A stretch of DNA of 64,000 nucleotides from a virus. Below are positions 1,973-52,382 of the stretch, one piece after another. The stretch is from IMG/VR virus record IMGVR_UViG_3300021256_000097; one strand, given 5' to 3'. Under the pieces are notes generated by a model. That model did not search any database. It had not been told where the DNA came from and worked only from the letters and a program-made list of their open reading frames with translations. Both the position numbers and the translations under genes were made by a program. How positions within the stretch are numbered: position 1 is the first letter of the stretch; each line of letters opens with the position of its first letter.

Positions 1973-4663
1973 ATGACAGGACTTACATCTAGTCAGGTTG
2001 AAGCTTCTCGTGCAAAACATGGAAGCAACGTTATTCCAGATTCAGAACCAACAACATTCTGGGCTGAATTTAAGGAAGCACTTGGTGATCCAATGATTAA
2101 GATTCTTATGGCAATTGCCGCTCTTATGATTGGATTGTTCGTAATTGGCGACAATTGTCTTCATCTTGTAAAAGGTATTGATCAGACATTGTTTGAACCA
2201 CTTGGTACTTTGATTGCCGTATTCTTGGTAGCAACAATCTCTGCTAAGACAGCTGTTGGTAGCGACCAGAAGTATCGCGACCTTAAATCACGTTCTGAAA
2301 AGGACAAGGTAAAGGTTCTTCGTGATGGTAAAGTTCAGGTAATTGATGCTGATGACATTGTAGTTGACGATATTGTGCTGCTTCAGTCTGGCGATAAGAT
2401 TCCAGCTGATGGTACTCTTATTGAAGGTAAGCTTAAGGTAAATAACGCAGCTTTGAATGGTGAGACAGAAGAAGCTAAAAAGACTGGCGATGAAAAGTCA
2501 CATATTCCTGAAAATCTTACTGGTGATACATTCGTTGATAAGTCATCACTTTTCCGTGGCGCAATTGTAACAGATGGGGAAGGTTACTTCCGTGTTGAAG
2601 CAGTTGGTCTTGCTACTATGATGGGTAAAATGGCTGAAGAGATGAATGGTGAACAAGTTGATTCACCACTTAAGGTTAAGCTCTCTAAGCTTGCTAACCA
2701 GATTTCAGTATTTGGCTATATTTCAGCTGTTGCAATTGTAGTTCTTTACCTTGTTATGGGTATTGTACATGCTGGTGGTTTTGCTCCATTCTTTACCAAC
2801 TGGCAGGGACTTGTTCATACTATCGTACAAGCCGCAAACCTTGCAATTTTGATTATTGTTTGTGCTGTTCCAGAGGGACTTCCATTGATGATTTCTTTGG
2901 TACTCATGCAGAATACATCTAAGATGCTTGACCATAATGTATTGGTTCGTAAAGCTCAGGGTATTGAAACAGCTGGTTCTTTGAACATTTTGTTCTCTGA
3001 TAAAACTGGTACAATTACAAAAGGACATCTTGAAGTAGTTGAACTTTTTGATGGCGCTGGTAAAGCAACAAAGCCTGCTGAAGCATTCCTTGAATGTGTT
3101 ACAAAGAATACACAGGCTATTATCGAAGGCGACAAAGTAATTGGTGGTAATATGACTGACCAGGCTTTGATGCGCTATGTACTTGAAAACAAGCTTACAG
3201 CCCCTGAAGTTTCTATTGTTAAAGAACAGGGATTCAACTCAGCTAACAAGTTTAGCCAGGCGCAGCTTTCAGATAAAAAGCTTGTATATAAGGGTGCTCC
3301 TGAACGTCTTCTTCCAAACTGTACAAAGTATCTTGATGCAGATGGAAATCTTCAGGATTTCGATGTTAAGCAGCTTGAGCCAAAGATTGACGAAATGGCA
3401 AATAAAGCTATGCGTATGCTCGCATTCGCTTACAAAGCTGACGCAACACTTAAAGAAGATAAAGTACAGGAAGAACTTGTACTTGTAGGTATTGCAGCTA
3501 TTCGTGATGATGTTCGTCCTGAAGCTCGTGATGCTATTGCTGAAGTAAATCGTGCTGGTATCCAGGTTGTAATGATTACTGGTGACCGTCTTGAGACAGC
3601 TGTTGCAATCGCAAAAGATGCTAATCTTCTTGATGAATCTGCAACAATCTTGACTGAAGAAAACAAAGATGAAATGCTTAAGCGTTACAAGGATACTGAA
3701 ACATCAACTGACCGTAAGGGTATCGCAGTTTCTTCTGCAATGCTTAGTACACTTTCAGATGATGAAATCAAGATTCTTGTATCTGGTATCCGTGTAATTG
3801 CGCGTGCTCTCCCAACAGATAAATCTCGTATGGTTCGTATCTGCCAGGAAATGGGACTTGTATGTGGTATGACAGGTGATGGTGTAAACGATTCTCCAGC
3901 TCTTAAAGCTGCTGATGTTGGTTTCGCTATGGGTTCTGGTACAGAAGCTGCAAAGGAAGCTGGCGATTTGGTTATCATTGATGATAACTTTAAGTCAATC
4001 AAAGACGCAATCTTGTTTGGTCGTACAATCTACCACAACATCTTGAAGTTTGTAAGATTCCAGCTTAGTATGAACGTACTTGCAGTACTTGCAACATTGT
4101 TAAGCCCTATCCTTGGTTTCAATGCGCCACTTACAGTTGTAATGTTGCTCTTTGTAAACCTCTGTTGTGATTCATTGGCATCACTTATGTTTGGTCCTGA
4201 ACCAGCTCTTGAAAAGTATATGGATGAAAAGCCACGTAGACGTACAGAATCTATCGTTAGTGGTAAGATGCTTACAAATATCGTTCTTACATCCGTATGG
4301 CTTGCTGCTGTAGGATTTGTAATGATGGCACGTAATGCTGGTACATTGTCAGTATATCAGATGCAGGCTATGTATTTTGTATTCTATATCTGGGGATCAT
4401 TGTTCAATGGATTCCAGTGTCGTTCAGATGGATTTGATATCTTCACTGGTATCAAAGAAAATAAGAACTTCATTAAGATTCCTTTGATTATTGTTGCTGC
4501 TCAGGCTGCAATCGTATGTATTGGTCTTATCCCAGCACTTGCTCCTGTAGGACTTGTATTTGGATGTGAACCAATTGCTGCTAATCTCTGGATTGAAGCA
4601 ATTGTTCTTGGTTTGACTGTACTTCCTATCGGCTGTATCACAAAGATTGGCCGTAAGCGCTAA
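1973..4663 (+). CDS. P-type cation-transporting ATPase (P2-type, Ca2+/Mg2+-like)
   Basis: DKTGTIT phosphorylation motif, MITGD, GDGVNDSPALKAADVGFAMG, and multiple TM segments. 896 aa. Confidence 0.9.
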   Translation: MTGLTSSQVEASRAKHGSNVIPDSEPTTFWAEFKEALGDPMIKILMAIAALMIGLFVIGDNCLHLVKGIDQTLFEPLGTLIAVFLVATISAKTAVGSDQKYRDLKSRSEKDKVKVLRDGKVQVIDADDIVVDDIVLLQSGDKIPADGTLIEGKLKVNNAALNGETEEAKKTGDEKSHIPENLTGDTFVDKSSLFRGAIVTDGEGYFRVEAVGLATMMGKMAEEMNGEQVDSPLKVKLSKLANQISVFGYISAVAIVVLYLVMGIVHAGGFAPFFTNWQGLVHTIVQAANLAILIIVCAVPEGLPLMISLVLMQNTSKMLDHNVLVRKAQGIETAGSLNILFSDKTGTITKGHLEVVELFDGAGKATKPAEAFLECVTKNTQAIIEGDKVIGGNMTDQALMRYVLENKLTAPEVSIVKEQGFNSANKFSQAQLSDKKLVYKGAPERLLPNCTKYLDADGNLQDFDVKQLEPKIDEMANKAMRMLAFAYKADATLKEDKVQEELVLVGIAAIRDDVRPEARDAIAEVNRAGIQVVMITGDRLETAVAIAKDANLLDESATILTEENKDEMLKRYKDTETSTDRKGIAVSSAMLSTLSDDEIKILVSGIRVIARALPTDKSRMVRICQEMGLVCGMTGDGVNDSPALKAADVGFAMGSGTEAAKEAGDLVIIDDNFKSIKDAILFGRTIYHNILKFVRFQLSMNVLAVLATLLSPILGFNAPLTVVMLLFVNLCCDSLASLMFGPEPALEKYMDEKPRRRTESIVSGKMLTNIVLTSVWLAAVGFVMMARNAGTLSVYQMQAMYFVFYIWGSLFNGFQCRSDGFDIFTGIKENKNFIKIPLIIVAAQAAIVCIGLIPALAPVGLVFGCEPIAANLWIEAIVLGLTVLPIGCITKIGRKR

Positions 4664-42892: not shown

Positions 42893-43159
42893 ATGAGAGA
42901 TATGCAAATAACTTTAATTTCAGCTATTACAGCGGCTGGTCTTTACTTTCTTATAAGTCTTTTACCGGAACGTGTAAAAATTATTGTTATGCTAGTATTC
43001 TGCGGAACTGGCTTTGGATTTTGTCTTTATCCAATAGTTACAATGGGCGCTACTGATCCTAGACTTAAGCTTGGTGTATTCTTTTGTGCTATAGGAACTA
43101 TATCTTGGGTTTTAGTTTTAATAAGAAATATTAAAGGAGGAAAACATGGTCGAAGATAA
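42893..43159 (+). CDS. Small membrane protein
   Basis: Two hydrophobic segments. Confidence 0.4.
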   Translation: MRDMQITLISAITAAGLYFLISLLPERVKIIVMLVFCGTGFGFCLYPIVTMGATDPRLKLGVFFCAIGTISWVLVLIRNIKGGKHGRR

Positions 43160-43670
43160 AGTTAAGGTATTTGACTTTCCACTTGAATGTCATACGGCTT
43201 ATTACTTTGCAAAGTGTAAACATGGGGAGGTTCACCAGACTAGAAAAGGAACTGGCGTGCCCTATTTTATTCATCCAAAAGGTGTAGCTTTAATTGTTAA
43301 GCAGCATGGTGGAAACAATGATCAAATAAAAGCAGCACTGCTCCATGATACCCTCGAAGATACGCATACCTCAGATGAAGAATTACGGGTATGCTTTGGA
43401 GAGCATGTTCAGTCTTTGGTACGTGAGCTTACTAACCAGCGATATAAAATTGAAGAGATTGGTAAAGAAGCCTATATGACAGATAAACTTATGCATCTGT
43501 CAAATGAAGCCCTGTTGGTTAAGTTGGCTGATATGCTCTATAATATTTCAGACAATCCAACTGAAGCACAGGAAGTTAGAATGCTTCATAATATTTCTGC
43601 TTTGATTGCAAACAGAAAAGACTTAACTGACAATACAAAACGCCTTGCAGTAATGGTGTTTGGGAGCTAA
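43146..43670 (+). CDS. HD-domain (p)ppGpp hydrolase (small alarmone hydrolase, RelA/SpoT-HD type)
   Basis: RKGTGVPYFIHP...AALLHDTLEDT matches the SpoT hydrolase HD motif. AGGAGG RBS. Confidence 0.7.
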   Translation: MVEDKVKVFDFPLECHTAYYFAKCKHGEVHQTRKGTGVPYFIHPKGVALIVKQHGGNNDQIKAALLHDTLEDTHTSDEELRVCFGEHVQSLVRELTNQRYKIEEIGKEAYMTDKLMHLSNEALLVKLADMLYNISDNPTEAQEVRMLHNISALIANRKDLTDNTKRLAVMVFGS

Positions 43671-43836: not shown

Positions 43837-43876
43837 GAAAATAATTAAATAAAAATATACTTTACAATAATAAATT

Positions 43877-43886
43877 ACATATTATA
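43877..43886 (+). promoter_or_regulatory. Promoter core ACATATTATA. It starts the transcript of about 420 nt that runs into tRNA-Leu.
   Basis: Core motif. No ORF lies downstream until the tRNA. Confidence 0.55.
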
Positions 43887-44304
43887 ATTGTTAGGTGATA
43901 AACCTAATCGACCTAAGGCGTGGTAGCCTAAATAGTGATGAAGTATAGGATAGCGGTGTGCTTAAGAGCTACGCGACAATTACGTTTCCTATATGGAGCT
44001 ATGGAAGAAAAGCTCAGAGTTTCCTAATTGGGCTCTAGACTTGGACCATACAGACCAAGAGATCCTAACCCTAGAGTTAGGGGATGCAACGGTACGGTTA
44101 TAAACAACGAGAAGCTTCAGAGTGAGCTAATCGGGTCCAGTTTCAAACGTGGGAACATCCGTATTCCGTGAGTTTACACGGACACATTAGAATTGAAGAG
44201 TAGGGTCATACGGGATACCGAAATTCGTATTATTGCTGGTCAGTGAAAAGTTAGAAGCCCTAGCATATGGCGTCTGGCTTGGAGACCGAAATATATGCTA
44301 ATCT
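43887..44304 (+). ncRNA. ORF-free structured leader of about 420 nt, a candidate ncRNA, between the promoter and tRNA-Leu
   Basis: Several hairpins, for example ttaggtgataaacctaa, cttggaccatacagaccaag and ccctagagttaggg. No ORF or RBS. Confidence 0.3.
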
Positions 44305-44339
44305 GCGTGAGTGGCGGAATTGGTAGACGCCCAGGACTT

Positions 44340-45026
44340 TGAAGTCTAGAATGTTTACAAACAATTTGTACTAATTTAATTATGATTAGTAATGAAGAGT
44401 TTATAAGCATTGTAGAAAAATGTCAAACAATGGCACTAGCTGCCAAAAAAGTTGGTATGGCCTATACTTCCTTTATTAGGAAGGCAAAAAAACTTGGTTG
44501 TTATAAACCAAATCAAGGCCATAAAGGTGTTAAAACTGGTCATCCATCAAATTGGATCCGGACAGAAGACATCTTAGCTGGTAAGTACCCACAGTATCAA
44601 ACATATAAGTTAAAAGCTAGACTTATAACTGAGGGGTATTTAGAGGACAAATGTTCTTTATGTGGTTGGGATAAAAAGCCAGAAGGAGCAAGATTTACTC
44701 CTTGTGAGCTTGACCATATAAATGGAAATCCAACGGATCACAGATTTGAGAACTTAAGATTGATTTGTCCTAATTGCCATTCTCTTACTGAGACATATCG
44801 TTTCAGAAGAGGTAAGACAAATGAGTCACAAGGTAGGAAACTCCTTGATGAGAATGAGGCTAATTCGACGAACCCTTAACGATAGTTAAAGCGTTATGGC
44901 AACGACGAGCTAAGCAAAATGTGTAGAGACTATACACCTCGTACCTAAACAGAAATGCATGGTAATGAAATAGTCCAGACCACAAACCTTTTGTTTGATA
45001 AGGGTAATGAAAGTTATGGTGGTAAG
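44340..45026 (+). mobile_element. Group I intron in the tRNA-Leu anticodon loop, carrying an HNH homing endonuclease ORF
   Basis: The 5' exon ends in U and the intron ends in G (ggtaag|aaaa). The IGS aagtc pairs with exon gactt. P7 R/S-like elements tagagacta (about 44925) and aatagtcc (about 44970) are present. The insertion site is the same as in the classic tRNA-Leu(UAA) intron. Confidence 0.7.
44382..44879 (+). CDS. HNH homing endonuclease (intron-encoded)
   Basis: CSLCGW...ELDHINGNPTDHRFENLRLICPNCHS is an HNH motif with zinc cysteines. Confidence 0.85.
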   Translation: MISNEEFISIVEKCQTMALAAKKVGMAYTSFIRKAKKLGCYKPNQGHKGVKTGHPSNWIRTEDILAGKYPQYQTYKLKARLITEGYLEDKCSLCGWDKKPEGARFTPCELDHINGNPTDHRFENLRLICPNCHSLTETYRFRRGKTNESQGRKLLDENEANSTNP

Positions 45027-45165
45027 AAAATCCTGTGCTCGCTAAGGGCGTACGGGTTCAAGTCCCGTCTCGCGCAATGCACAGTAAAGTCTTTTGAAAT
45101 AATAAAGGCCATGGGACACTTAAGCTGTACGCTTTAGCCTGCTTTTCTTTGGTGTAGCCCAAGTC

Positions 45166-45207
45166 GCGGATTGAGGTGAAAGATGGTTCGACTCCATCCG
45201 TTCCGCA
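45166..45207 (+). ncRNA. tRNA-like module with an acceptor-like stem and a T-arm but no D-arm or anticodon arm (tRNA mimic, possibly YrlA-like)
   Basis: gcgga...tccgc stem. T-arm gatgg-ttcgact-ccatc. Only 9 nt separate the 5' stem strand from the T-arm. Confidence 0.3.
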
Positions 45208-45574
45208 TACGTGGCATAGAATTGAGGAGTAAATTGATCCTATGTGCATTTAGTGGATATCCCTACTTGCGCAATAAAAATAGGGGATTTTGAACGATTT
45301 TGTGTCCGCATACGTCGAGGCGACGTCATATTGTAACAGGTATGACAGGCGGTGCAACTCTCGCTATGTATGCATAGTGTTCAGGCATGCCTAACACGAA
45401 TTGAAAATCGCCAGGAGTAATTGACGAAAATTACGCGCGTTAAAGTAGTTGATGAATTATACTGGGAGCCTTAGAAAAACAACTGAGCCGCACTTGGTTG
45501 CTAAGGTATTGGGACTCGTACCAATTGAATATCCTACGATAAAGGCAGGGATAGCCACAACATCCAACCTTTAT

Positions 45575-45659
45575 GTATCAGTGGTCGAGAGGTCGAAGAC
45601 AGCAGACTGTTAATCTGCCGAGCGAAAGCCCACCACAGGTTCGAACCCTGTCTGATACG
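45575..45659 (+). tRNA. tRNA with anticodon GTT (Asn-like) and an atypically long 16-nt variable region. Identity is uncertain.
   Basis: Acceptor gtatcag/ctgatac. Anticodon stem gcaga/tctgc with loop ctGTTaa. T-arm acagg-ttcgaac-cctgt. Confidence 0.5.
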
Positions 45660-46151
45660 CTAAAAATCCAGGATCTAATACCTGGTTAGAAGTGTATTAG
45701 AGACCTAATATGAGCGGATGGTTTTACCAGATGAAACTTGTATTAGAAGGCTATTACTTTACAAATACTGTACGCTTGTGTCAGTCCTTGCGTTAACGAT
45801 GCGCAGGTATAACGGCTGGGAAGGTTCGTAGAAAGCCTAAGCTTAGAGTACTATGCTCAATACCGTAAGTCCGTCGCCTCAAGTTTGATTCTACCTATTA
45901 TATGATAAGGGTCGACTGACAGCCTACGGAAGTTTAGGGATTGATAGTAGGTGACCAATTATACGAGTCGTAATCCCTTTATAAATAACCATTATATGGA
46001 AGAGTCCTTAGGGAATGGCCTACCGAAATGGTAACAATGGGAATTGAAGTACTATTGGGGAGTGAACCGATTATAGGAACATTGTAGTATAGTGGTATTT
46101 ATAAACGATTTTTGTTAGTTATGTTAGTTTTATACTTTATTTGGTAAGCTA

Positions 46152-46161
46152 ACATATTATA
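46152..46161 (+). promoter_or_regulatory. Promoter core ACATATTATA. It drives a transcript of about 260 nt that ends at the terminator at 46393-46424.
   Basis: Core motif with no ORF downstream. Confidence 0.55.
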
Positions 46162-46164
46162 AAT

Positions 46165-46428
46165 ATGAAATTATGCGTATAATATGAAAGTTGAAATTTC
46201 ATAAAATACGCTAATATAAATATAACAGAAAATGCTGTAGGATTAGGTTTACTTAGATTCTATTTTTGGTTTAGAAAAAACAAAGAGCCTATCCGATTTT
46301 TCGCTTTTCTTAATTTTGGAATTATATGTAAGCCGACTCCCTATTACCAAATCGGGACCCCTCCTTGTCGGATTCATATGAGACATAGTTACGGGAAGCA
46401 TGCGAATGCTTCCTTTTTTTTTATTTAT
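46165..46428 (+). ncRNA. Candidate small ncRNA, about 260 nt from promoter to terminator, immediately upstream of the Ro60-like gene (possible Y-RNA-like RNA)
   Basis: The unit is bounded by the promoter and the gggaagcatgcgaatgcttcc+T9 terminator. An internal 13-bp hairpin gcgtataatatgaaa/tttcataaaatacgc is present. No ORF or RBS. Confidence 0.35.
46393..46424 (+). terminator. Intrinsic terminator
   Basis: gggaagcat gcga atgcttcc plus T9. Confidence 0.7.
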
Positions 46429-46471
46429 AAAATTATTTAATAAACTTCAGTTTGAAGTGAGGAGAAATAAA

Positions 46472-47917
46472 GTGAGTAAGGTTAATCAGAAAGCCAGTGT
46501 AGCAGAAGCTAAGAAGGTTTATGTACCGGGCGTTAAGGAAGATGCAAGACGTACTCTTATGACTTGTCTCTTGTGGGAAGATGAATACTATGAAAATGGT
46601 GTTTCAATTGCTGACCGCCTTAGGGGATATGTAAAACGCCTTAGCGAGCAGGATTGTCGTGAATTGTTATTGGAAGCAAAGTTCCAGAACAAGCTTCGCC
46701 ACGCTCCATTATTCTGGGCTGTTCAGATGGCAAAAGAAGGAAAGCTTAAGGCAGACGATGTTGCAAAGATTTGTGACCGTGTAGATACAATGGCTGACCT
46801 TTTGGCTATTTACTTTGATGAAAACCCTCTTTCAGACTCAGAAAAGTCAAAGTGTTATAAAAACGGAAATCGTGTGCACCGTGATAACAAAGCGGTACCA
46901 AAAGCAATTACAAAGGGCCTTCAGAAAGCAATTGAAAACCCAAGATTCGACGAATACGCTTTTGCAAAGTATCGTCTTGAGGATAAAGCAATCAAGACTC
47001 GCGACGTAATTCGTCTTGCACACGTAAAGCCATCAACCCCAGAACGTTCAGCTTTGTATAAGAAAGTACTTGATGGCACACTTGCGACTCCAGATACATG
47101 GGAAGTAGCTATCTCTGCTGCAGGTTCAGACATGAACGCTAAGCGTGACGCTTGGACTCGTTTGCTTTCAGAGAATAAGCTTGGTGTATTGGCATTGCTT
47201 CGTAACCTTAATGGTATGAGCCGTGCAGGTGTTGACCAGGCTAAGATTCGTAAGGCAGTAAAAGCAGCTTCAATTGGTCGTGTACTCCCATTCCAGATTG
47301 TAACTGCTTCAAGACACGCGCCAGAATTGGCAGATGTATTGAACACAAAGTTCATGGAATCTGTTGAAAACGTTGAAAAGCTTGAGGGAGAATCTCTTGT
47401 ACTTGTAGATGTTTCTGGTTCTATGAATGCTCCATTGTCAGCTAAGTCTGATACAAAACGTGTAGACGTAGCTGCTGCTCTTGGAGCTCTTGTAAAGGAA
47501 GTAAGTAAGGGTAGCGTAATCTACGCATTCGACGACAGCCTTAGACCAGTATCAACTGACCTTGCTGGATTGCCACTTGTACGTGAGCTTTCAAGAAATG
47601 GTGGTTGTACTGCAGTAGCAGAGTGTACAGAAAGAGCTATTAAAAACTACAGAAATTCACATGGCGGACGTGATCCAGCTCGTGTTATTGTAGTAACAGA
47701 CGCTCAGGACAACTCTTCTTACAACCGCGGTTGGGGCTGTGAATACGATGTAGCACGTATGCCAAAGGTTCCTTATGGAACTGGTTACATTGTAAATGTT
47801 GGAGCTCAGAAGAATGGCGTTGAATACGCGCTTCACTCTGGCTGGATGACTGTTTACGGATGGTCAGACAATATTGTTAAGTACATTGCAGCTTTGGAAA
47901 ATGAAAGACGCAAGTAA
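46472..47917 (+). CDS. rsr: Ro60/Rsr-like protein (TROVE plus vWA)
   Basis: CLLWEDEYYENG (TROVE-like), ALLRNLNG (Ro60 ALLRNLG signature), and vWA MIDAS LVDVSGSM. GTG start after GAGGAG. Confidence 0.6.
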   Translation: MSKVNQKASVAEAKKVYVPGVKEDARRTLMTCLLWEDEYYENGVSIADRLRGYVKRLSEQDCRELLLEAKFQNKLRHAPLFWAVQMAKEGKLKADDVAKICDRVDTMADLLAIYFDENPLSDSEKSKCYKNGNRVHRDNKAVPKAITKGLQKAIENPRFDEYAFAKYRLEDKAIKTRDVIRLAHVKPSTPERSALYKKVLDGTLATPDTWEVAISAAGSDMNAKRDAWTRLLSENKLGVLALLRNLNGMSRAGVDQAKIRKAVKAASIGRVLPFQIVTASRHAPELADVLNTKFMESVENVEKLEGESLVLVDVSGSMNAPLSAKSDTKRVDVAAALGALVKEVSKGSVIYAFDDSLRPVSTDLAGLPLVRELSRNGGCTAVAECTERAIKNYRNSHGGRDPARVIVVTDAQDNSSYNRGWGCEYDVARMPKVPYGTGYIVNVGAQKNGVEYALHSGWMTVYGWSDNIVKYIAALENERRK

Positions 47918-51228: not shown

Positions 51229-51238
51229 ACATATTATA
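51229..51238 (+). promoter_or_regulatory. Promoter core ACATATTATA upstream of the tmRNA
   Basis: Core motif about 60 nt before the tmRNA 5' end. Confidence 0.55.
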
Positions 51239-51297: not shown

Positions 51298-51663
51298 GGG
51301 CCTGACTTTGGAATCGATTGGTATCAGAGTAGTCTATGTATCATGCACAGTGGTTATTGTACCCTAAAAGCAACGTAAGTAATCGACGCACAGAACGAAT
51401 ATGCAATGGCTGCGTAAGCAACCTAGCATCTAGAGACTTCGAGAGCTCTAGCGCTTGAACCAACAGATGTAGGTGGTATGGTTTTAAGTGTGGCTACTAC
51501 CTTCTAGGAAGCAGTGAGAGGCGGAGCGAGAGCTTGTAACTGTAACGACAATACTAGGGCAGAATCCGGTTGCCGGTCCCGAATCGAAAAAAGGCTTAAG
51601 CATGTAGAGAAGTACATATTCAAAAAGGTAAGCAAGACGAGAGTTCGAAACTCTCCAGGTCCA
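51298..51663 (+). ncRNA. ssrA: tmRNA (SsrA), standard one-piece form. The tag reading frame is (D)AQNEYAMAA-stop at 51385/51388-51417.
   Basis: The 5' end GGGCCTGACTTTGGAATCGATTGG matches tmRNA GGGGCTGATTCTGGATTCGACGGG. The conserved TAAGCATGTAG motif is present. The 3' tRNA-like end is gagag-ttcgaaa-ctctc plus acceptor caggtcc, which pairs with the 5' gggcctg. The ORF gca cag aac gaa tat gca atg gct gcg taa is present. Confidence 0.8.
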
Positions 51664-51689
51664 GTTCGGTAAATATAACTAATTTAAGT

Positions 51690-52382
51690 ATGGAAACAGA
51701 AAGAATTAGATATATTTATCAAATTACAAATTTGGTTAATGGAAAAACTTATTTTGGTCAACGTACTAGAAGCTTAAAGTATACTTCTTCTTTAGCAGAT
51801 ATGTATTGGGGATCAGGAGTTTTATTAAAAAAAGCTAAAGAAAAATATGGCTTAGAAAATTTTGAGAAGAAAATTATAATAGAGGGTCATTTTTCTAAGG
51901 AACAGATAAATCGCTTTGAAAGATGTATAATACGTATTCAGCGTTTTATAGGTAAAGCAGAGTATAATCTTGCAGATGGTGGTGATGGTGGTGATACCTC
52001 AAGATTTATAGATTATTCCTCAATTGAACGTTCAGAAAATATTTCGAATGCAATGAAGGAAGCTTATAAAGAAGGTAAAATAAAACCACGCGGGTGGACC
52101 TTTCATAAGGGTATGAAAGGGAAACATCAATCTGATGATGCTAAAGAAAAAATTCGAAAGGCACAGTCAGGATGTAAAAATTCACAATATGGCAAGCATC
52201 GTTCTGAAGAAACAAAAAAGCGAATACGAACTGCTTTAGCGAGAGATTATAAAGCTGAATATAAAGAGCTGTATGAAGCTTTTTTAGACCATGTTTTATC
52301 TTCTGATGAAAAAAGGCTTTTTGCTAAGAAATATAATATTGCATATGACTCTATAAATAGAGTTTTAAGGCAATTTATATAG
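51690..52382 (+). CDS. GIY-YIG homing endonuclease (I-TevI/Seg-like, with NUMOD3 repeats), free-standing directly after the tmRNA
   Basis: YIYQITNLVNGKTYFGQ (GIY-YIG), YNLADGGDGGDT, and repeated KGMKGKHQSDDAKEKIRKA / QYGKHRSEETKKRIRTA NUMOD3-like motifs. Confidence 0.85.
   Translation: METERIRYIYQITNLVNGKTYFGQRTRSLKYTSSLADMYWGSGVLLKKAKEKYGLENFEKKIIIEGHFSKEQINRFERCIIRIQRFIGKAEYNLADGGDGGDTSRFIDYSSIERSENISNAMKEAYKEGKIKPRGWTFHKGMKGKHQSDDAKEKIRKAQSGCKNSQYGKHRSEETKKRIRTALARDYKAEYKELYEAFLDHVLSSDEKRLFAKKYNIAYDSINRVLRQFI

What the first reader, a model, noticed from the sequence alone, without database searches (positions are those of the whole stretch)
43877..46430. About 1.9 kb of ORF-free, promoter-driven DNA packed with tRNA and tRNA-like elements in an otherwise gene-dense genome
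Between 43.88 and 46.43 kb the only protein ORF is the intron HNH. The rest is transcribed from phage promoters (43877, 46152). It contains:
- A 420-nt structured leader.
- The intron-containing tRNA-Leu.
- A tRNA-like module at 45166-45207 with an acceptor-like stem and a perfect T-arm (gatgg-ttcgact-ccatc) but no D-arm or anticodon arm. It resembles the tRNA-mimic domain of bacterial YrlA Y RNAs.
- A repeated tccgcatacgt motif at 45200 and 45306.
- A tRNA with anticodon GTT and a long variable arm (45575-45659).
- A further 490 nt of ORF-free sequence.
This density of non-coding transcripts beside rsr suggests several structured RNAs that standard annotation would leave as intergenic. Examples would be Y RNAs, processing substrates or decoys.
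Basis: partly seen in the sequence, partly recalled or inferred. Interest (0 to 1): 0.7.

Follow-up and report, generated by a model that had tools for sequence, protein, structure and literature searches.

The report
Phage tRNA island with divergent Y RNA

Summary

- **tRNA-Leu(UAA):** it is split by a 687-nt group I intron carrying an HNH gene.
- **tRNA-Asn(GUU):** real, with a 15-nt variable loop.
- **Promoters:** 43877 and 46152 are exact copies of a phage motif found 39 times in the window (2.7 expected).
- **T-arm minihelix (45166-45207):** real, but it fails every YrlA test except the T arm.

The Y RNA lies elsewhere, at 46224-46313. It has its own promoter and terminator, 159 nt upstream of rsr on the same strand. 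A related element lies upstream of rsr in 12 of the 14 phage-like Rsr loci examined (Rsr 36-78% identical). Covariation supports the fold: 13 of 14 pairs show compensatory changes.

Its architecture matches the Rsr-binding module of bacterial YrlA: terminal stem, bulged U, 2-bp step, 4-nt/7-nt internal loop, 8-bp stem, then UUAC. GCUGUAG replaces the GNCGAAG motif. Longer family members inside tRNA arrays carry the V/T/acceptor-like/D tRNA-like domain, and YrlA models hit them weakly.

The 498-nt spacer between the two tRNAs (45077-45574) is conserved in one relative and unclassified. The leader and 45660-46140 have no detectable relatives.

Verdict: a new variant of a known kind.

The parts
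43861..43888 (+). Promoter of the tRNA/ncRNA operon: TTTACA-16-TATAAT, overlapping the phage motif ACATATTATAAT (43877-43888)
   Evidence: Consensus scan gives 11 of 12 matches. The motif is 39-fold repeated in the window against 2.7 expected, and 38 of 39 copies are on the + strand.
43889..44304 (+). 416-nt ORF-free leader, unclassified
   Evidence: Highest G+C of any 450-nt stretch in the window. Fold z-score is -0.88. No Rfam hit at E<=10. No homolog in any relative. L002 has tRNA-Met at this position.
44305..44339 (+). tRNA-Leu(UAA) exon 1, ending at U34
   Evidence: ARAGORN calls tRNA-Leu(taa) on the spliced sequence. Intron-less orthologues sit at the same place in L002 and L005.
44340..45026 (+). 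687-nt group I intron; catalytic core about 44777-44999; last base is G
   Evidence: Rfam RF00028 matches the full model at 27.5 bits, E 6.8e-5, below the gathering score of 50. An ORF-less ~205-nt homologue sits at the same U34/A35 site of tRNA-Leu in the 735-kb phage LR756501 (nhmmer E 8.5e-17). L011 also carries the intron's 3' end.
44382..44879 (+). HNH homing-endonuclease ORF (165 aa) inside the intron
   Evidence: Pfam HNH, E 1.3e-5. DNA similarity to HNH endonuclease genes of Rhodococcus and Staphylococcus phages.
45027..45076 (+). tRNA-Leu(UAA) exon 2, with discriminator A at 45076
45077..45574 (+). 498-nt inter-tRNA RNA, unclassified, abutting tRNAs at both ends
   Evidence: About 94% identical to L002 (98% over the first ~390 nt), while rsr and the HD gene are 73-75% identical at DNA level. 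Two hairpins in the divergent 3' part keep pairing through changes: CAACUGAG/CUUGGUUG vs CAAUUAAG/CUUAAUUG, and AUUGG/CCAAU vs CGUGG/CCACG (read). No Rfam hit. Only two sequences are known.
45166..45207 (+). tRNA-like minihelix: GCGGAUU, 9-nt linker, T arm GAUGG-UUCGACU-CCAUC, C, GUUCCGC, A
   Evidence: Orphan T-arm motif, identical in L002. The minimum-energy fold prefers an alternative hairpin. The YrlA model matches the T arm only.
45575..45659 (+). tRNA-Asn(GUU) with a 15-nt variable loop (GAAA-capped mini-stem) and discriminator G
   Evidence: Rfam tRNA 56.6 bits; ARAGORN. A 23-nt stretch (3' strand of the D stem plus the anticodon arm) is identical to that of L016's ordinary 75-nt tRNA-Asn, whose variable loop is 5 nt.
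45660..46140 (+). ORF-free stretch with no detectable conservation
   Evidence: No homolog. G+C is 0.381. Fold z-score is -0.78. No remnant of the small ORFs that relatives carry here.
46152..46220 (+). Promoter region of the Y RNA gene: phage motif ACATATTATAAA (46152-46163), then TTGAAA (46191-46196), 18 nt, TATAAA (46215-46220)
   Evidence: for the motif. Relatives have TTGCAT-N17/18-TAATAT/TATAAT at the same distance from the RNA's 5' stem.
46224..46313 (+). Core of a divergent Y RNA (YrlB-like). P1a 46228-46232 pairs with 46305-46309; bulged U at 46233; P1b 46234-46235 pairs with 46303-46304; 5' loop UGUA 46236-46239; P2 46240-46247 pairs with 46288-46294; UUACUUAG at 46249-46256; P3 hairpin 46258-46276
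   Evidence: Model R1 scores 86.2 bits, and this is the only hit in 64 kb. RNAalifold on a plain MAFFT alignment finds P1 and P2. The single-sequence minimum-energy fold gives the same helices.
46314..46424 (+). 3' domain of the Y RNA gene: variable hairpin, then an intrinsic terminator (stem 46393-46414 plus a U run)
   Evidence: Terminator scan. Fold z-score is -3.0. Relatives all have a different but equivalent terminator hairpin.
46472..47917 (+). rsr, the Ro60 orthologue (TROVE domain)
   Evidence: Pfam TROVE, E 2e-10. More than 4000 homologues found; sources that name them call them 60 kDa SS-A/Ro ribonucleoprotein.

Best explanation
The stretch is a non-coding RNA island made of two transcription units next to rsr.

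**Unit 1** starts at the phage promoter at 43877 and is a polycistronic tRNA-type precursor. Its order is: leader, tRNA-Leu(UAA) interrupted by a mobile group I intron with an HNH homing endonuclease, a 498-nt RNA carrying a tRNA-like minihelix, then tRNA-Asn(GUU). The intron would splice itself out. The host tRNA-end enzymes (RNase P and the 3' processing enzymes) would cut at the tRNAs, and possibly at the minihelix, releasing the intervening RNAs.

**Unit 2** (about 46227-46424) has its own promoter and terminator. It is a Y RNA of roughly 200 nt belonging to a divergent branch of the bacterial YrlA/YrlB family. Its terminal stem, bulged U, internal loop and second stem form the platform that the Rsr protein encoded 48 nt further on binds. 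As in known Ro/Y RNA particles, the RNA then gates Rsr or tethers it to an exoribonuclease such as PNPase.

**Shown here:** the elements themselves, the fold of the Y RNA, its linkage to rsr, and its architectural match to YrlA.

**Inferred:** transcription, processing, Rsr binding, and any downstream function.
For: **Linkage to rsr.**
- A match to R1 lies 18-164 nt upstream of rsr on the same strand in the window and in L002, L003, L005, L011, L013, L016, L017, L018, L069, L152 and L132 (Rsr 36-78% identical).
- The window holds a single hit in 64 kb.

**Fold.**
- RNAalifold on an unfitted alignment finds P1 and P2, with compensatory changes in 10 of 14 pairs.
- On that alignment 91.6% of cells pair, and the covariation score is 0.46 against 0.24 in shuffles and at most 0.20 when partners are slid.
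- On the 34-hit model alignment (29 distinct sequences) 96.9% pair, 13 of 14 pairs show double changes, and the score is 0.64 against 0.23.

**Specificity.** There were no hits in 336 kb of viral loci that carry the motif by chance. In 475 kb of genome loci that carry it by chance, the only hits were two long forms on one rumen contig. In 520 kb around mostly bacterial rsr genes, the only hits were two elements directly upstream of rsr.

**Relation to YrlA.**
- I rebuilt bacterial YrlA from 17 rsr-adjacent loci. Its 5' module is stem, bulged U, GG, CGAA, 8-bp stem, UUACUUC, and its 3' loop is CGCUUAUU.
- The phage family has stem, bulged U, GC, UGUA, 7-8-bp stem, UUACUUAG, and 3' loop CGCYUUUU.
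- One element (L132 4911-4983) is hit by both models: R1 at 33.8 bits, E 1e-3, and YrlA model R2 at 34.4 bits, E 5e-5.
- Long family members (L150-L153) carry V, T arm, acceptor-like hairpin and D arm in YrlA order.
- L151 2028-2170 is matched full-length by R2 (24.4 bits, E 0.0016) and weakly by Rfam YrlA (19.8 bits, E 0.08).

**Gene boundaries.** A promoter and a covarying terminator flank the core in all close relatives.

**Precedent.** Y RNA-like genes upstream of phage Ro60 are known, and phiLo's bind phiRo60 and PNPase (PMC4201824, PMC12135203).

**Unit 1.** See for the intron, for the tRNA, and for the promoter motif.
Against: - No expression or binding data exist.
- The window's copy lacks the GNCGAAN0-1G/CGAA motif, which the literature treats as the likely Rsr contact.
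- It also lacks the tRNA-like domain.
- It is not detected by Rfam YrlA. The bacterial YrlA model gives only 5.3 bits, E 0.87.
- The link to YrlA therefore rests on architecture, short shared motifs and intermediate sequences.
- A strong terminator between the RNA and rsr is also what a transcription attenuator would look like.
- For unit 1, the leader and 45660-46140 are unconserved and may be functionless spacer.
- The 498-nt RNA is known from only two sequences. Its 98% identity could reflect recent exchange rather than constraint.
Confidence: 0.65

Rival explanations
1. The conserved element at 46224-46424 is a cis-acting leader of rsr. It would be a transcription attenuator, or a site for autoregulation by Rsr, rather than a free Y RNA. 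The terminator decides whether RNA polymerase reads on into rsr.
For: - It always lies directly upstream of rsr on the same strand, and a terminator separates the two in all close relatives.
- No separate consensus promoter for rsr was reported between the terminator and the start codon.
- In L132 the element runs straight into the rsr ribosome-binding site with no terminator.
Against: - Other family members sit far from rsr, inside tRNA arrays and abutting tRNAs within 0-4 nt (L150-L153, L013, L016, L018, L020). That fits released trans-acting RNAs.
- L005 and L011 carry two tandem copies.
- Bacterial Y RNAs are likewise encoded upstream of rsr and co-transcribed with it (PMC4201824), so position does not separate the two readings.
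- The two roles are not mutually exclusive.
Confidence: 0.15
2. This is the first reader's reading: the tRNA-like minihelix at 45166-45207 is the tRNA-mimic domain of a YrlA-type Y RNA.
For: - It has a perfect T arm and a 7-bp acceptor-like stem.
- The T-arm motif is non-random.
- It lies 1.3 kb upstream of rsr on the same strand and is identical in L002.
Against: - There is no D arm.
- The acceptor stem is open rather than a closed hairpin following the T arm.
- No GNCGAA motif and no UUAC-type module are nearby.
- The bacterial YrlA model matches only the T arm (9.1 bits, E 0.14).
- Rfam YrlA gives no hit at E<=10 and R1 gives none.
- It is absent from relatives L003, L005, L011 and L017, which keep rsr and the other element.
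Confidence: 0.05
3. Apart from the tRNAs, the intron and the Y RNA, the remaining sequence has no function of its own. On this reading the leader, the 498-nt spacer and 45660-46140 are decaying tRNA-array and recombination debris, carried along as transcribed spacer.
For: - Relatives have quite different content at these places: tRNA-Met, small ORFs, or arrays of 14-17 tRNAs.
- The leader and 45660-46140 have no homolog.
- Fold z-scores are unremarkable, between -0.8 and -1.6.
- An orphan T arm is what a decayed tRNA would leave behind.
Against: - The 498-nt RNA is 94-98% identical to L002 while neighbouring genes are 73-75% identical.
- Its divergent 3' part keeps two hairpins through compensatory changes.
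- The leader and the 498-nt RNA are the most G+C-rich non-coding stretches of an A+T-rich window.
- No ORF remnants were found.
Confidence: 0.3

Closest known systems
Bacterial YrlA / YrlB Y RNAs (Chen et al. 2014, PMC4201824; Rfam RF02553)
   Same: - Encoded on the same strand just upstream of rsr.
- A terminal stem formed by the 5' and 3' ends, with a bulged U, a short step, an asymmetric internal loop and a second stem.
- A conserved YUAY (UUAC) right after that stem, and a similar 3' loop (CGCYUUUU against CGCUUAUU).
- Several paralogues per genome.
- Long members carry V, T, acceptor-like and D arms in the same order.
- Like YrlB, the window's copy has no tRNA-like domain.
   Different: - GCUGUAG replaces GNCGAAG: the CGAA of the internal loop reads UGUA.
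- P1b is GC:GC rather than GG:CC.
- The element is A+U-rich.
- The window's copy is not detected by Rfam YrlA or by a bacterial YrlA model.
- Many members are cistrons of phage tRNA arrays.
Yrl1 / Yrl2 of Thermus phage phiLo and the Y RNA-like genes of mycobacteriophages, CcrColossus and phage G (PMC12135203, PMC4201824)
   Same: These are phage-encoded Y RNA-like genes upstream of a phage Ro60 gene, with a stem / internal loop / stem design. They give a precedent for binding to phage Ro60 and host PNPase.
   Different: Those RNAs were picked out by their CGAA motif, which is absent here.
Group I intron of tRNA-Leu(UAA) in cyanobacteria and plastids, and group I introns in other bacterial tRNA genes (own knowledge; PMC13011429 for Patescibacteria)
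   Same: The insertion lies between U34 and A35 of the UAA anticodon. The last intron base is G, and the core matches RF00028.
   Different: This one is in a phage genome and carries an HNH endonuclease ORF that starts 42 nt into the intron and overlaps the core. The score is below Rfam's gathering threshold, and I could not identify the P1 pairing.
ROOL and GOLLD large RNAs of phages and prophages (PMC12286853)
   Same: Large non-coding RNAs encoded beside tRNA islands in phage genomes. The source sample names suggest rumen, though that was not checked. This comparison applies to the 498-nt RNA and the leader.
   Different: No match to any Rfam family at E<=10, and Rfam holds profiles of both (PMC12286853). 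The RNAs here are smaller, and only two sequences are known, so no fold can be established.

Membership tests
YrlA/YrlB Y RNA: element at 46224-46313 | Encoded within 4 kb of rsr on the same strand | tested here: met
   The core ends 159 nt before the rsr start codon, on the + strand. The same holds in 11 related loci.
YrlA/YrlB Y RNA: element at 46224-46313 | 5' and 3' ends form a stem interrupted by a bulge and internal loop (the presumed Rsr-binding module) | tested here: met
   P1a, bulged U, P1b, internal loop and P2 are supported by covariation and by the single-sequence fold. The layout is the same as in the rebuilt bacterial YrlA consensus.
YrlA/YrlB Y RNA: element at 46224-46313 | GNCGAAN0-1G motif near the 5' end | tested here: not met
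   The sequence at the equivalent place is GCUGUAG, which is near-invariant in the family. It differs from GNCGAAG at two positions.
YrlA/YrlB Y RNA: element at 46224-46313 | Conserved YUAY following the second stem | tested here: met
   UUAC of UUACUUAG is near-invariant in the family. Bacterial YrlA has (U/A)UACUUC at the same position.
YrlA/YrlB Y RNA: element at 46224-46313 | tRNA-like domain with T arm, acceptor-like stem-loop and D arm (YrlA only; YrlB lacks it) | tested here: not met
   The window's copy has only a 5-bp hairpin inside P2. Long family members in L150-L153 do have V, T, AS and D in that order.
YrlA/YrlB Y RNA: element at 46224-46313 | Scores as YrlA with a covariance model | tested here: not met
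   No Rfam RF02553 hit at E<=10. My bacterial YrlA model R2 gives 5.3 bits, E 0.87. Indirect links exist: L132's element is hit by both R1 and R2, and L151's long form is hit by R2 at E 0.0016 and by RF02553 at E 0.08.
YrlA/YrlB Y RNA: element at 46224-46313 | Bound by Rsr in vivo | not testable with these tools
   Needs immunoprecipitation or a gel-shift assay.
YrlA tRNA-mimic domain: module at 45166-45207 | T arm, followed by a closed acceptor-like hairpin, followed by a D arm, set in an Rsr-binding stem | tested here: not met
   Only the T arm is present. R2 aligns the T arm alone at 9.1 bits, E 0.14. Rfam gives no YrlA hit and R1 gives none.
Group I intron: 44340-45026 | Catalytic core recognised by the family model | tested here: inconclusive
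   RF00028 matches the full model at 27.5 bits, E 6.8e-5 in a 781-nt search, below the gathering score of 50. The intron's 3' part is homologous to that of a compact ORF-less insertion at the same site in LR756501.
Group I intron: 44340-45026 | U before the 5' splice site, terminal G, and exons that join into a functional gene | tested here: met
   The exon ends in ...CUU and the intron ends in ...UAAG. The joined exons give tRNA-Leu(UAA), 85 nt. Intron-less orthologues exist in L002 and L005.
Group I intron: 44340-45026 | P1 helix with a U.G pair at the splice site | tested here: inconclusive
   By eye I found no convincing internal guide sequence in the first 42 nt of the intron.
tRNA: 45575-45659 | Cloverleaf scoring above Rfam's tRNA threshold | tested here: met
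   56.6 bits against a gathering score of 29. ARAGORN calls tRNA-Asn(gtt).
ROOL / GOLLD / other curated large RNAs: 43889-44304 and 45077-45574 | Match to the family covariance model | tested here: not met
   No Rfam family at E<=10 apart from tRNA.

The most novel reading that the evidence does not exclude
The 498-nt RNA between the two tRNAs (45077-45574), with its embedded acceptor/T-arm minihelix, could be a new class of large structured phage RNA of the ROOL/GOLLD kind. It would be released from the tRNA precursor by RNase P and 3' processing. It might then act on the tRNA machinery, for example as a decoy for tRNA-targeting defence nucleases or as a client or effector partner of the Rsr/Y RNA particle. 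The unconserved leader might be a second such RNA.
Probability: 0.2. Interest if true: 0.7.

Novelty: new variant of a known kind. Interest (0 to 1): 0.5.

Why it matters
Y RNAs are the obligate partners of Ro60/Rsr, yet in bacteria and phages they are found mainly through one short motif (CGAA) and one Rfam model.

- **A family that lacks the motif.** This family keeps the YrlA architecture and its link to rsr but has lost that motif, so current searches miss it. That suggests the shape of the bulged stem and loop, rather than CGAA itself, is what is conserved.
- **Where it occurs.** The family is found in very large phages, judging by sample names from rumen and gut. Extra copies there are cistrons of tRNA arrays. 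This ties the Ro/Y RNA particle to the phage's own tRNA supply.
- **A usable tool.** The covariance model built here would let these genes be annotated.
- **The rest of the island** shows that giant phages pack unclassified RNAs between their tRNAs. It includes an intron-split tRNA-Leu, an odd tRNA-Asn and a conserved 498-nt RNA.

Tried and rejected
**Searches that found no close relative**
- GenBank phages by DNA and by Rsr protein: nothing close (best Rsr identity 38%).
- IMG/VR with the Rsr protein: nothing.
- IMG/VR with two exact motifs of the Y RNA: only chance matches, none passing the model.
- IMG/VR and GTDB genomes with a 22-nt piece of the minihelix: nothing.
- GTDB genomes with the Y RNA motif: 69 loci, of which only one 2.3-kb rumen contig is real.

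**Attempts to extend the evidence**
- Looking for more copies of the 498-nt RNA through relatives of the neighbouring HD-domain gene failed. Those relatives (83-94% identical) are not syntenic here.
- nhmmer and blastn of the leader and of 45660-46150 against all fetched loci and the rest of the window found nothing.
- tblastn of the relatives' small ORFs against the window found no remnants.

**Ideas considered and dropped**
- GTCGAAG in the D loop of tRNA-Asn as a Y RNA motif: rejected, because it lies within an ordinary D loop.
- The TCCGCATACGT repeat as a signal: it is at chance level on its own. The second copy forms the 3' strand of a predicted stem (z-score -3.0).
- A second conserved RNA of relatives (GGAAGUCUAUACGCUUCUUC...UUGUUCGAGG...GAACGAAC in L003, L005, L011, L017) has no counterpart in the window. 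I did not model it.
- Thermodynamic z-scores of the three long stretches are not informative.

Full report
**Setting.** The window lies on a 940,564-bp metagenomic scaffold. It has phage hallmarks: rIIB, homing endonucleases, tRNAs and a tmRNA. It has no close relative among GenBank phages; the best Rsr identity there is 38%. G+C is 36%.

**Checking the observation.**
- Between the HD-domain gene (ends 43670) and rsr (GTG at 46472; TROVE domain E 2e-10), the only sizeable ORF is the 165-aa HNH ORF at 44382-44879. It is also the only gene called there on the source contig.
- The two 'promoters' are exact copies of ACATATTATAAW. That motif occurs 39 times in the window against 2.7 expected. Of those, 38 are on the + strand, and several sit just upstream of ORFs and of the tmRNA.
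- The first copy overlaps a TTTACA-16-TATAAT site.

**tRNA-Leu and its intron.**
- Joining 44305-44339 to 45027-45076 gives an 85-nt tRNA-Leu(UAA). The break falls between U34 and A35, and the intron ends in G.
- Rfam's group I model matches 44777-44999 over its full length at 27.5 bits, E 6.8e-5. This is below the curated threshold of 50. The core therefore overlaps the 3' end of the HNH ORF.
- Relatives L002 and L005 have an uninterrupted tRNA-Leu(UAA) at the same place. L011 has the same intron 3' end.
- The 735-kb phage LR756501 has a compact, ORF-less ~205-nt intron at the same site. It is homologous to the window's 3' part (E 8.5e-17).
- I could not identify the P1 pairing.
- Conclusion: a mobile group I intron with a homing endonuclease, an ordinary kind of element in an uncommon host gene.

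**The Y RNA.**
- I fetched the contigs that encode the closest Rsr relatives. All share one element upstream of rsr: AAUGCUGUAG, 6-9 nt, UUACUUAG, a variable part, then UUGCUUUUCU.
- In most of them a sigma-70-type promoter is readable upstream of it (TTGCAT-N17/18-TAATAT in the closest relatives). A hairpin with a U run follows it in all except L132.
- RNAalifold on a plain MAFFT alignment of 12 copies finds two helices. P1 is formed by the two ends and is interrupted by a bulged U. P2 encloses UUACUUAG and the variable part. Ten of 14 pairs show compensatory changes.
- On that unfitted alignment 91.6% of cells pair, against 77.7% in shuffles. The covariation score is 0.46, against 0.24 in shuffles and at most 0.20 with slid partners.
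- A covariance model (R1) finds exactly one copy in the 64-kb window, at 46224-46313 (86 bits). It finds 33 more matches in the related loci.
- On the resulting alignment (fitted to the model, so it leans that way) 96.9% of cells pair and 13 of 14 pairs show double changes.

*Controls.*
- No hit in 336 kb of viral loci that contain the sequence motif by chance.
- In 475 kb of bacterial genome loci with the motif, the only hits are two on one 2.3-kb rumen contig.
- In 520 kb around mostly bacterial rsr genes, there are only two hits, both directly upstream of rsr on phage-like contigs.

**Is it a Y RNA?**
- Rfam holds YrlA (RF02553) but does not hit the element. It also hit no rsr-adjacent RNA in 12 bacterial loci, so its silence says little.
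- I therefore rebuilt bacterial YrlA from 17 rsr-adjacent loci that show the published features: GNCGAAN0-1G, then T arm, acceptor-like hairpin and D arm (PMC4201824).
- Its consensus is ucGCCGG-U-GG-CGAA-GgccACGG-uUACUUCg ... CCGUggcC-gcuuaUU-CC-CCGGCga.
- The phage family reads aGAAAA-U-GC-UGUA-(7-8 bp)-UUACUUAG ... (7-8 bp)-CGCYUUUU-GC-UUUUCu.
- The layout is the same, element by element: terminal stem, one bulged U, a 2-bp step, a 4-nt loop facing a 7-8-nt loop, a second stem of about 8 bp, then UUAC. The 3' loops are alike.
- The GNCGAAG motif reads GCUGUAG.

*Intermediate sequences.*
- L132 4911-4983, 18 nt upstream of an rsr at 36% identity, is hit by both models: R1 at 33.8 bits, E 1e-3, and R2 at 34.4 bits, E 5e-5.
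- Long members of the phage family (L150-L153, about 146 nt) hold a V hairpin, a T arm, an 8-bp acceptor-like hairpin and a D arm inside P2. That is the YrlA order.
- L151's copy is matched end to end by the bacterial model (24.4 bits, E 0.0016) and weakly by Rfam YrlA (19.8 bits, E 0.08).

*The window's own copy.*
- The bacterial model gives it only 5.3 bits, E 0.87, although this is its only full-length placement of appreciable length in the region.
- It has a 5-bp hairpin where the tRNA-like domain would be. It therefore resembles YrlB, the Salmonella Y RNA that lacks the tRNA-like domain.
- I conclude that it is a divergent member of the YrlA/YrlB kind. Binding to Rsr is inferred, not shown.

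*Other copies and precedent.*
- Other copies lie inside tRNA arrays, abutting tRNAs within 0-4 nt. This argues for released, trans-acting RNAs and against a purely cis-acting leader of rsr.
- The terminator between the RNA and rsr leaves an attenuator role open.
- Phage Y RNA-like genes upstream of phage Ro60 are already known. Those of Thermus phage phiLo bind phiRo60 and host PNPase (PMC4201824, PMC12135203).

- GGTTCRANYCC occurs four times in the window against 0.17 expected: three tRNAs plus 45185. With GCGGAUU / GUUCCGC it forms an acceptor/T-arm minihelix, identical in L002.
- It has no D arm and no YrlA-type stem. The YrlA model aligns only its T arm. The minimum-energy fold prefers another hairpin.
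- It lies inside the 498-nt spacer that runs exactly from the end of tRNA-Leu to the start of tRNA-Asn.
- That spacer is 94% identical to L002 (98% over the first ~390 nt), while rsr and the HD gene are 73% and 75% identical. Either strong constraint or recent exchange would explain this.
- In the divergent last 100 nt, two hairpins keep pairing through changes (read).
- With only two sequences no fold can be established. No Rfam family matches. ROOL and GOLLD, large phage RNAs found near tRNA islands (PMC12286853), are the nearest analogy but not a match.
- A role of the minihelix as a processing signal is an inference.

**tRNA(GUU).**
- It scores 56.6 bits as a tRNA.
- A 23-nt stretch (3' strand of the D stem plus the anticodon arm) is identical to that of an ordinary 75-nt tRNA-Asn in L016. 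Its variable loop is 15 nt with a GAAA-capped mini-stem, against 5 nt in L016. The discriminator is G.
- It is best read as a tRNA-Asn with an inserted variable arm. Who charges it is unknown.

**Leader and 45660-46140.**
- Neither has a detectable relative, a known family or an unusual folding energy.
- Relatives have tRNA-Met, small ORFs or long tRNA arrays at these places. The window shows no remnant of those ORFs.
- The leader does have the highest G+C in the window. That is suggestive of structure in an A+T-rich genome, and no more.

**Verdict.**
- The island combines ordinary elements (tRNAs, a group I intron with an HNH gene) with a well-supported, previously unmodelled variant of the Y RNA family next to rsr. 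It also holds one conserved but unclassified 498-nt RNA.
- Novelty: a new variant of a known kind.

Noticed in passing
window, 39 sites, e.g. 18610, 28952, 33971, 42107, 43877, 46152, 51229: ACATATTATAAW is a strongly over-represented motif: 39 copies against 2.7 expected, 38 on the + strand. Several copies I checked lie just upstream of ORFs, and one lies upstream of the tmRNA. It is probably this phage's own promoter consensus.
   Followed up: partly
window 51298-51666 and 51690-52382: A tmRNA gene (tag DAQNEYAMAA) is preceded by the promoter motif at 51229. It is followed directly by a GIY-YIG/NUMOD3 homing-endonuclease ORF.
   Followed up: no
window 43146-43670: An HD_4 domain gene lies directly upstream of the island; JGI labels its homologues '(p)ppGpp synthase/HD superfamily hydrolase'. 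Proteins 83-94% identical occur on many contigs of up to 592 kb (pig gut and Hadza human samples, and others), but not in the same neighbourhood. Some of those relatives carry Thg1 (tRNA-His guanylyltransferase) nearby.
   Followed up: partly
window 45575-45659: tRNA-Asn(GUU) has a 15-nt variable loop and a Ser-like D loop (GGUCGAAG). I know of no class II-like tRNA-Asn. Whether AsnRS or SerRS charges it is open.
   Followed up: partly
L020 7843-7975 (also L021): Directly upstream of a 46%-identical rsr sits a tRNA-shaped RNA with an acceptor stem, D arm and T arm. Its anticodon arm is replaced by a long arm holding UUGUAG...UUACUUAG. Here the Y RNA module is grafted into a tRNA frame with the ends in the acceptor stem. 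L013 11160-11300 looks similar.
   Followed up: partly
L003 985-1160, L005 3015-3250, L011 610-835, L017 1150-1345: Four relatives share another conserved non-coding RNA upstream of their Y RNA gene: AAUGGAAGUCUAUACGCUUCUUC ... UUGUUCGAGG ... GAACGAAC. It has no counterpart in the window.
   Followed up: partly
window 45077-45470 vs L002 6742-7135: About 98% DNA identity over ~390 nt, between two phages whose flanking genes are 73-75% identical. The block starts inside the T arm of tRNA-Leu, next to the intron insertion site. Co-conversion during intron homing or another recent exchange is possible.
   Followed up: partly
window 46448-46460 and the same place in L002, L003, L005, L011, L013: A small hairpin sits just before the rsr ribosome-binding site (CUUCAGUUUGAAG). 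In relatives it changes sequence but keeps pairing (CCCUUAGUUUGAGGG, ACUUCGUGUAAAGU, GUUCGUAUGAAC).
   Followed up: no
L232 (CACYDY010000169.1, 2333 nt): A contig binned into a rumen 'Ruminococcus sp.' genome carries two long-form Y RNAs and a tRNA-Ser. It is either a mis-binned phage fragment or a hint at the host.
   Followed up: no
window 44188-44202 and 45217-45231: UAGAAUUGA(A/G)GAGUA occurs in both the leader and the 498-nt RNA (14 of 15 identical). About 0.15 such pairs are expected by chance.
   Followed up: no
L005 3465-3553 / 3600-3688, L011 1084-1173 / 1220-1308, and two copies each in L013, L018, L069: Several relatives have two Y RNA genes in tandem upstream of rsr. In L005 and L011 the distal copy is preceded by a tRNA-like cloverleaf with a T-arm-like hairpin (GGGUUUCGAAGUCCC).
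   Followed up: partly
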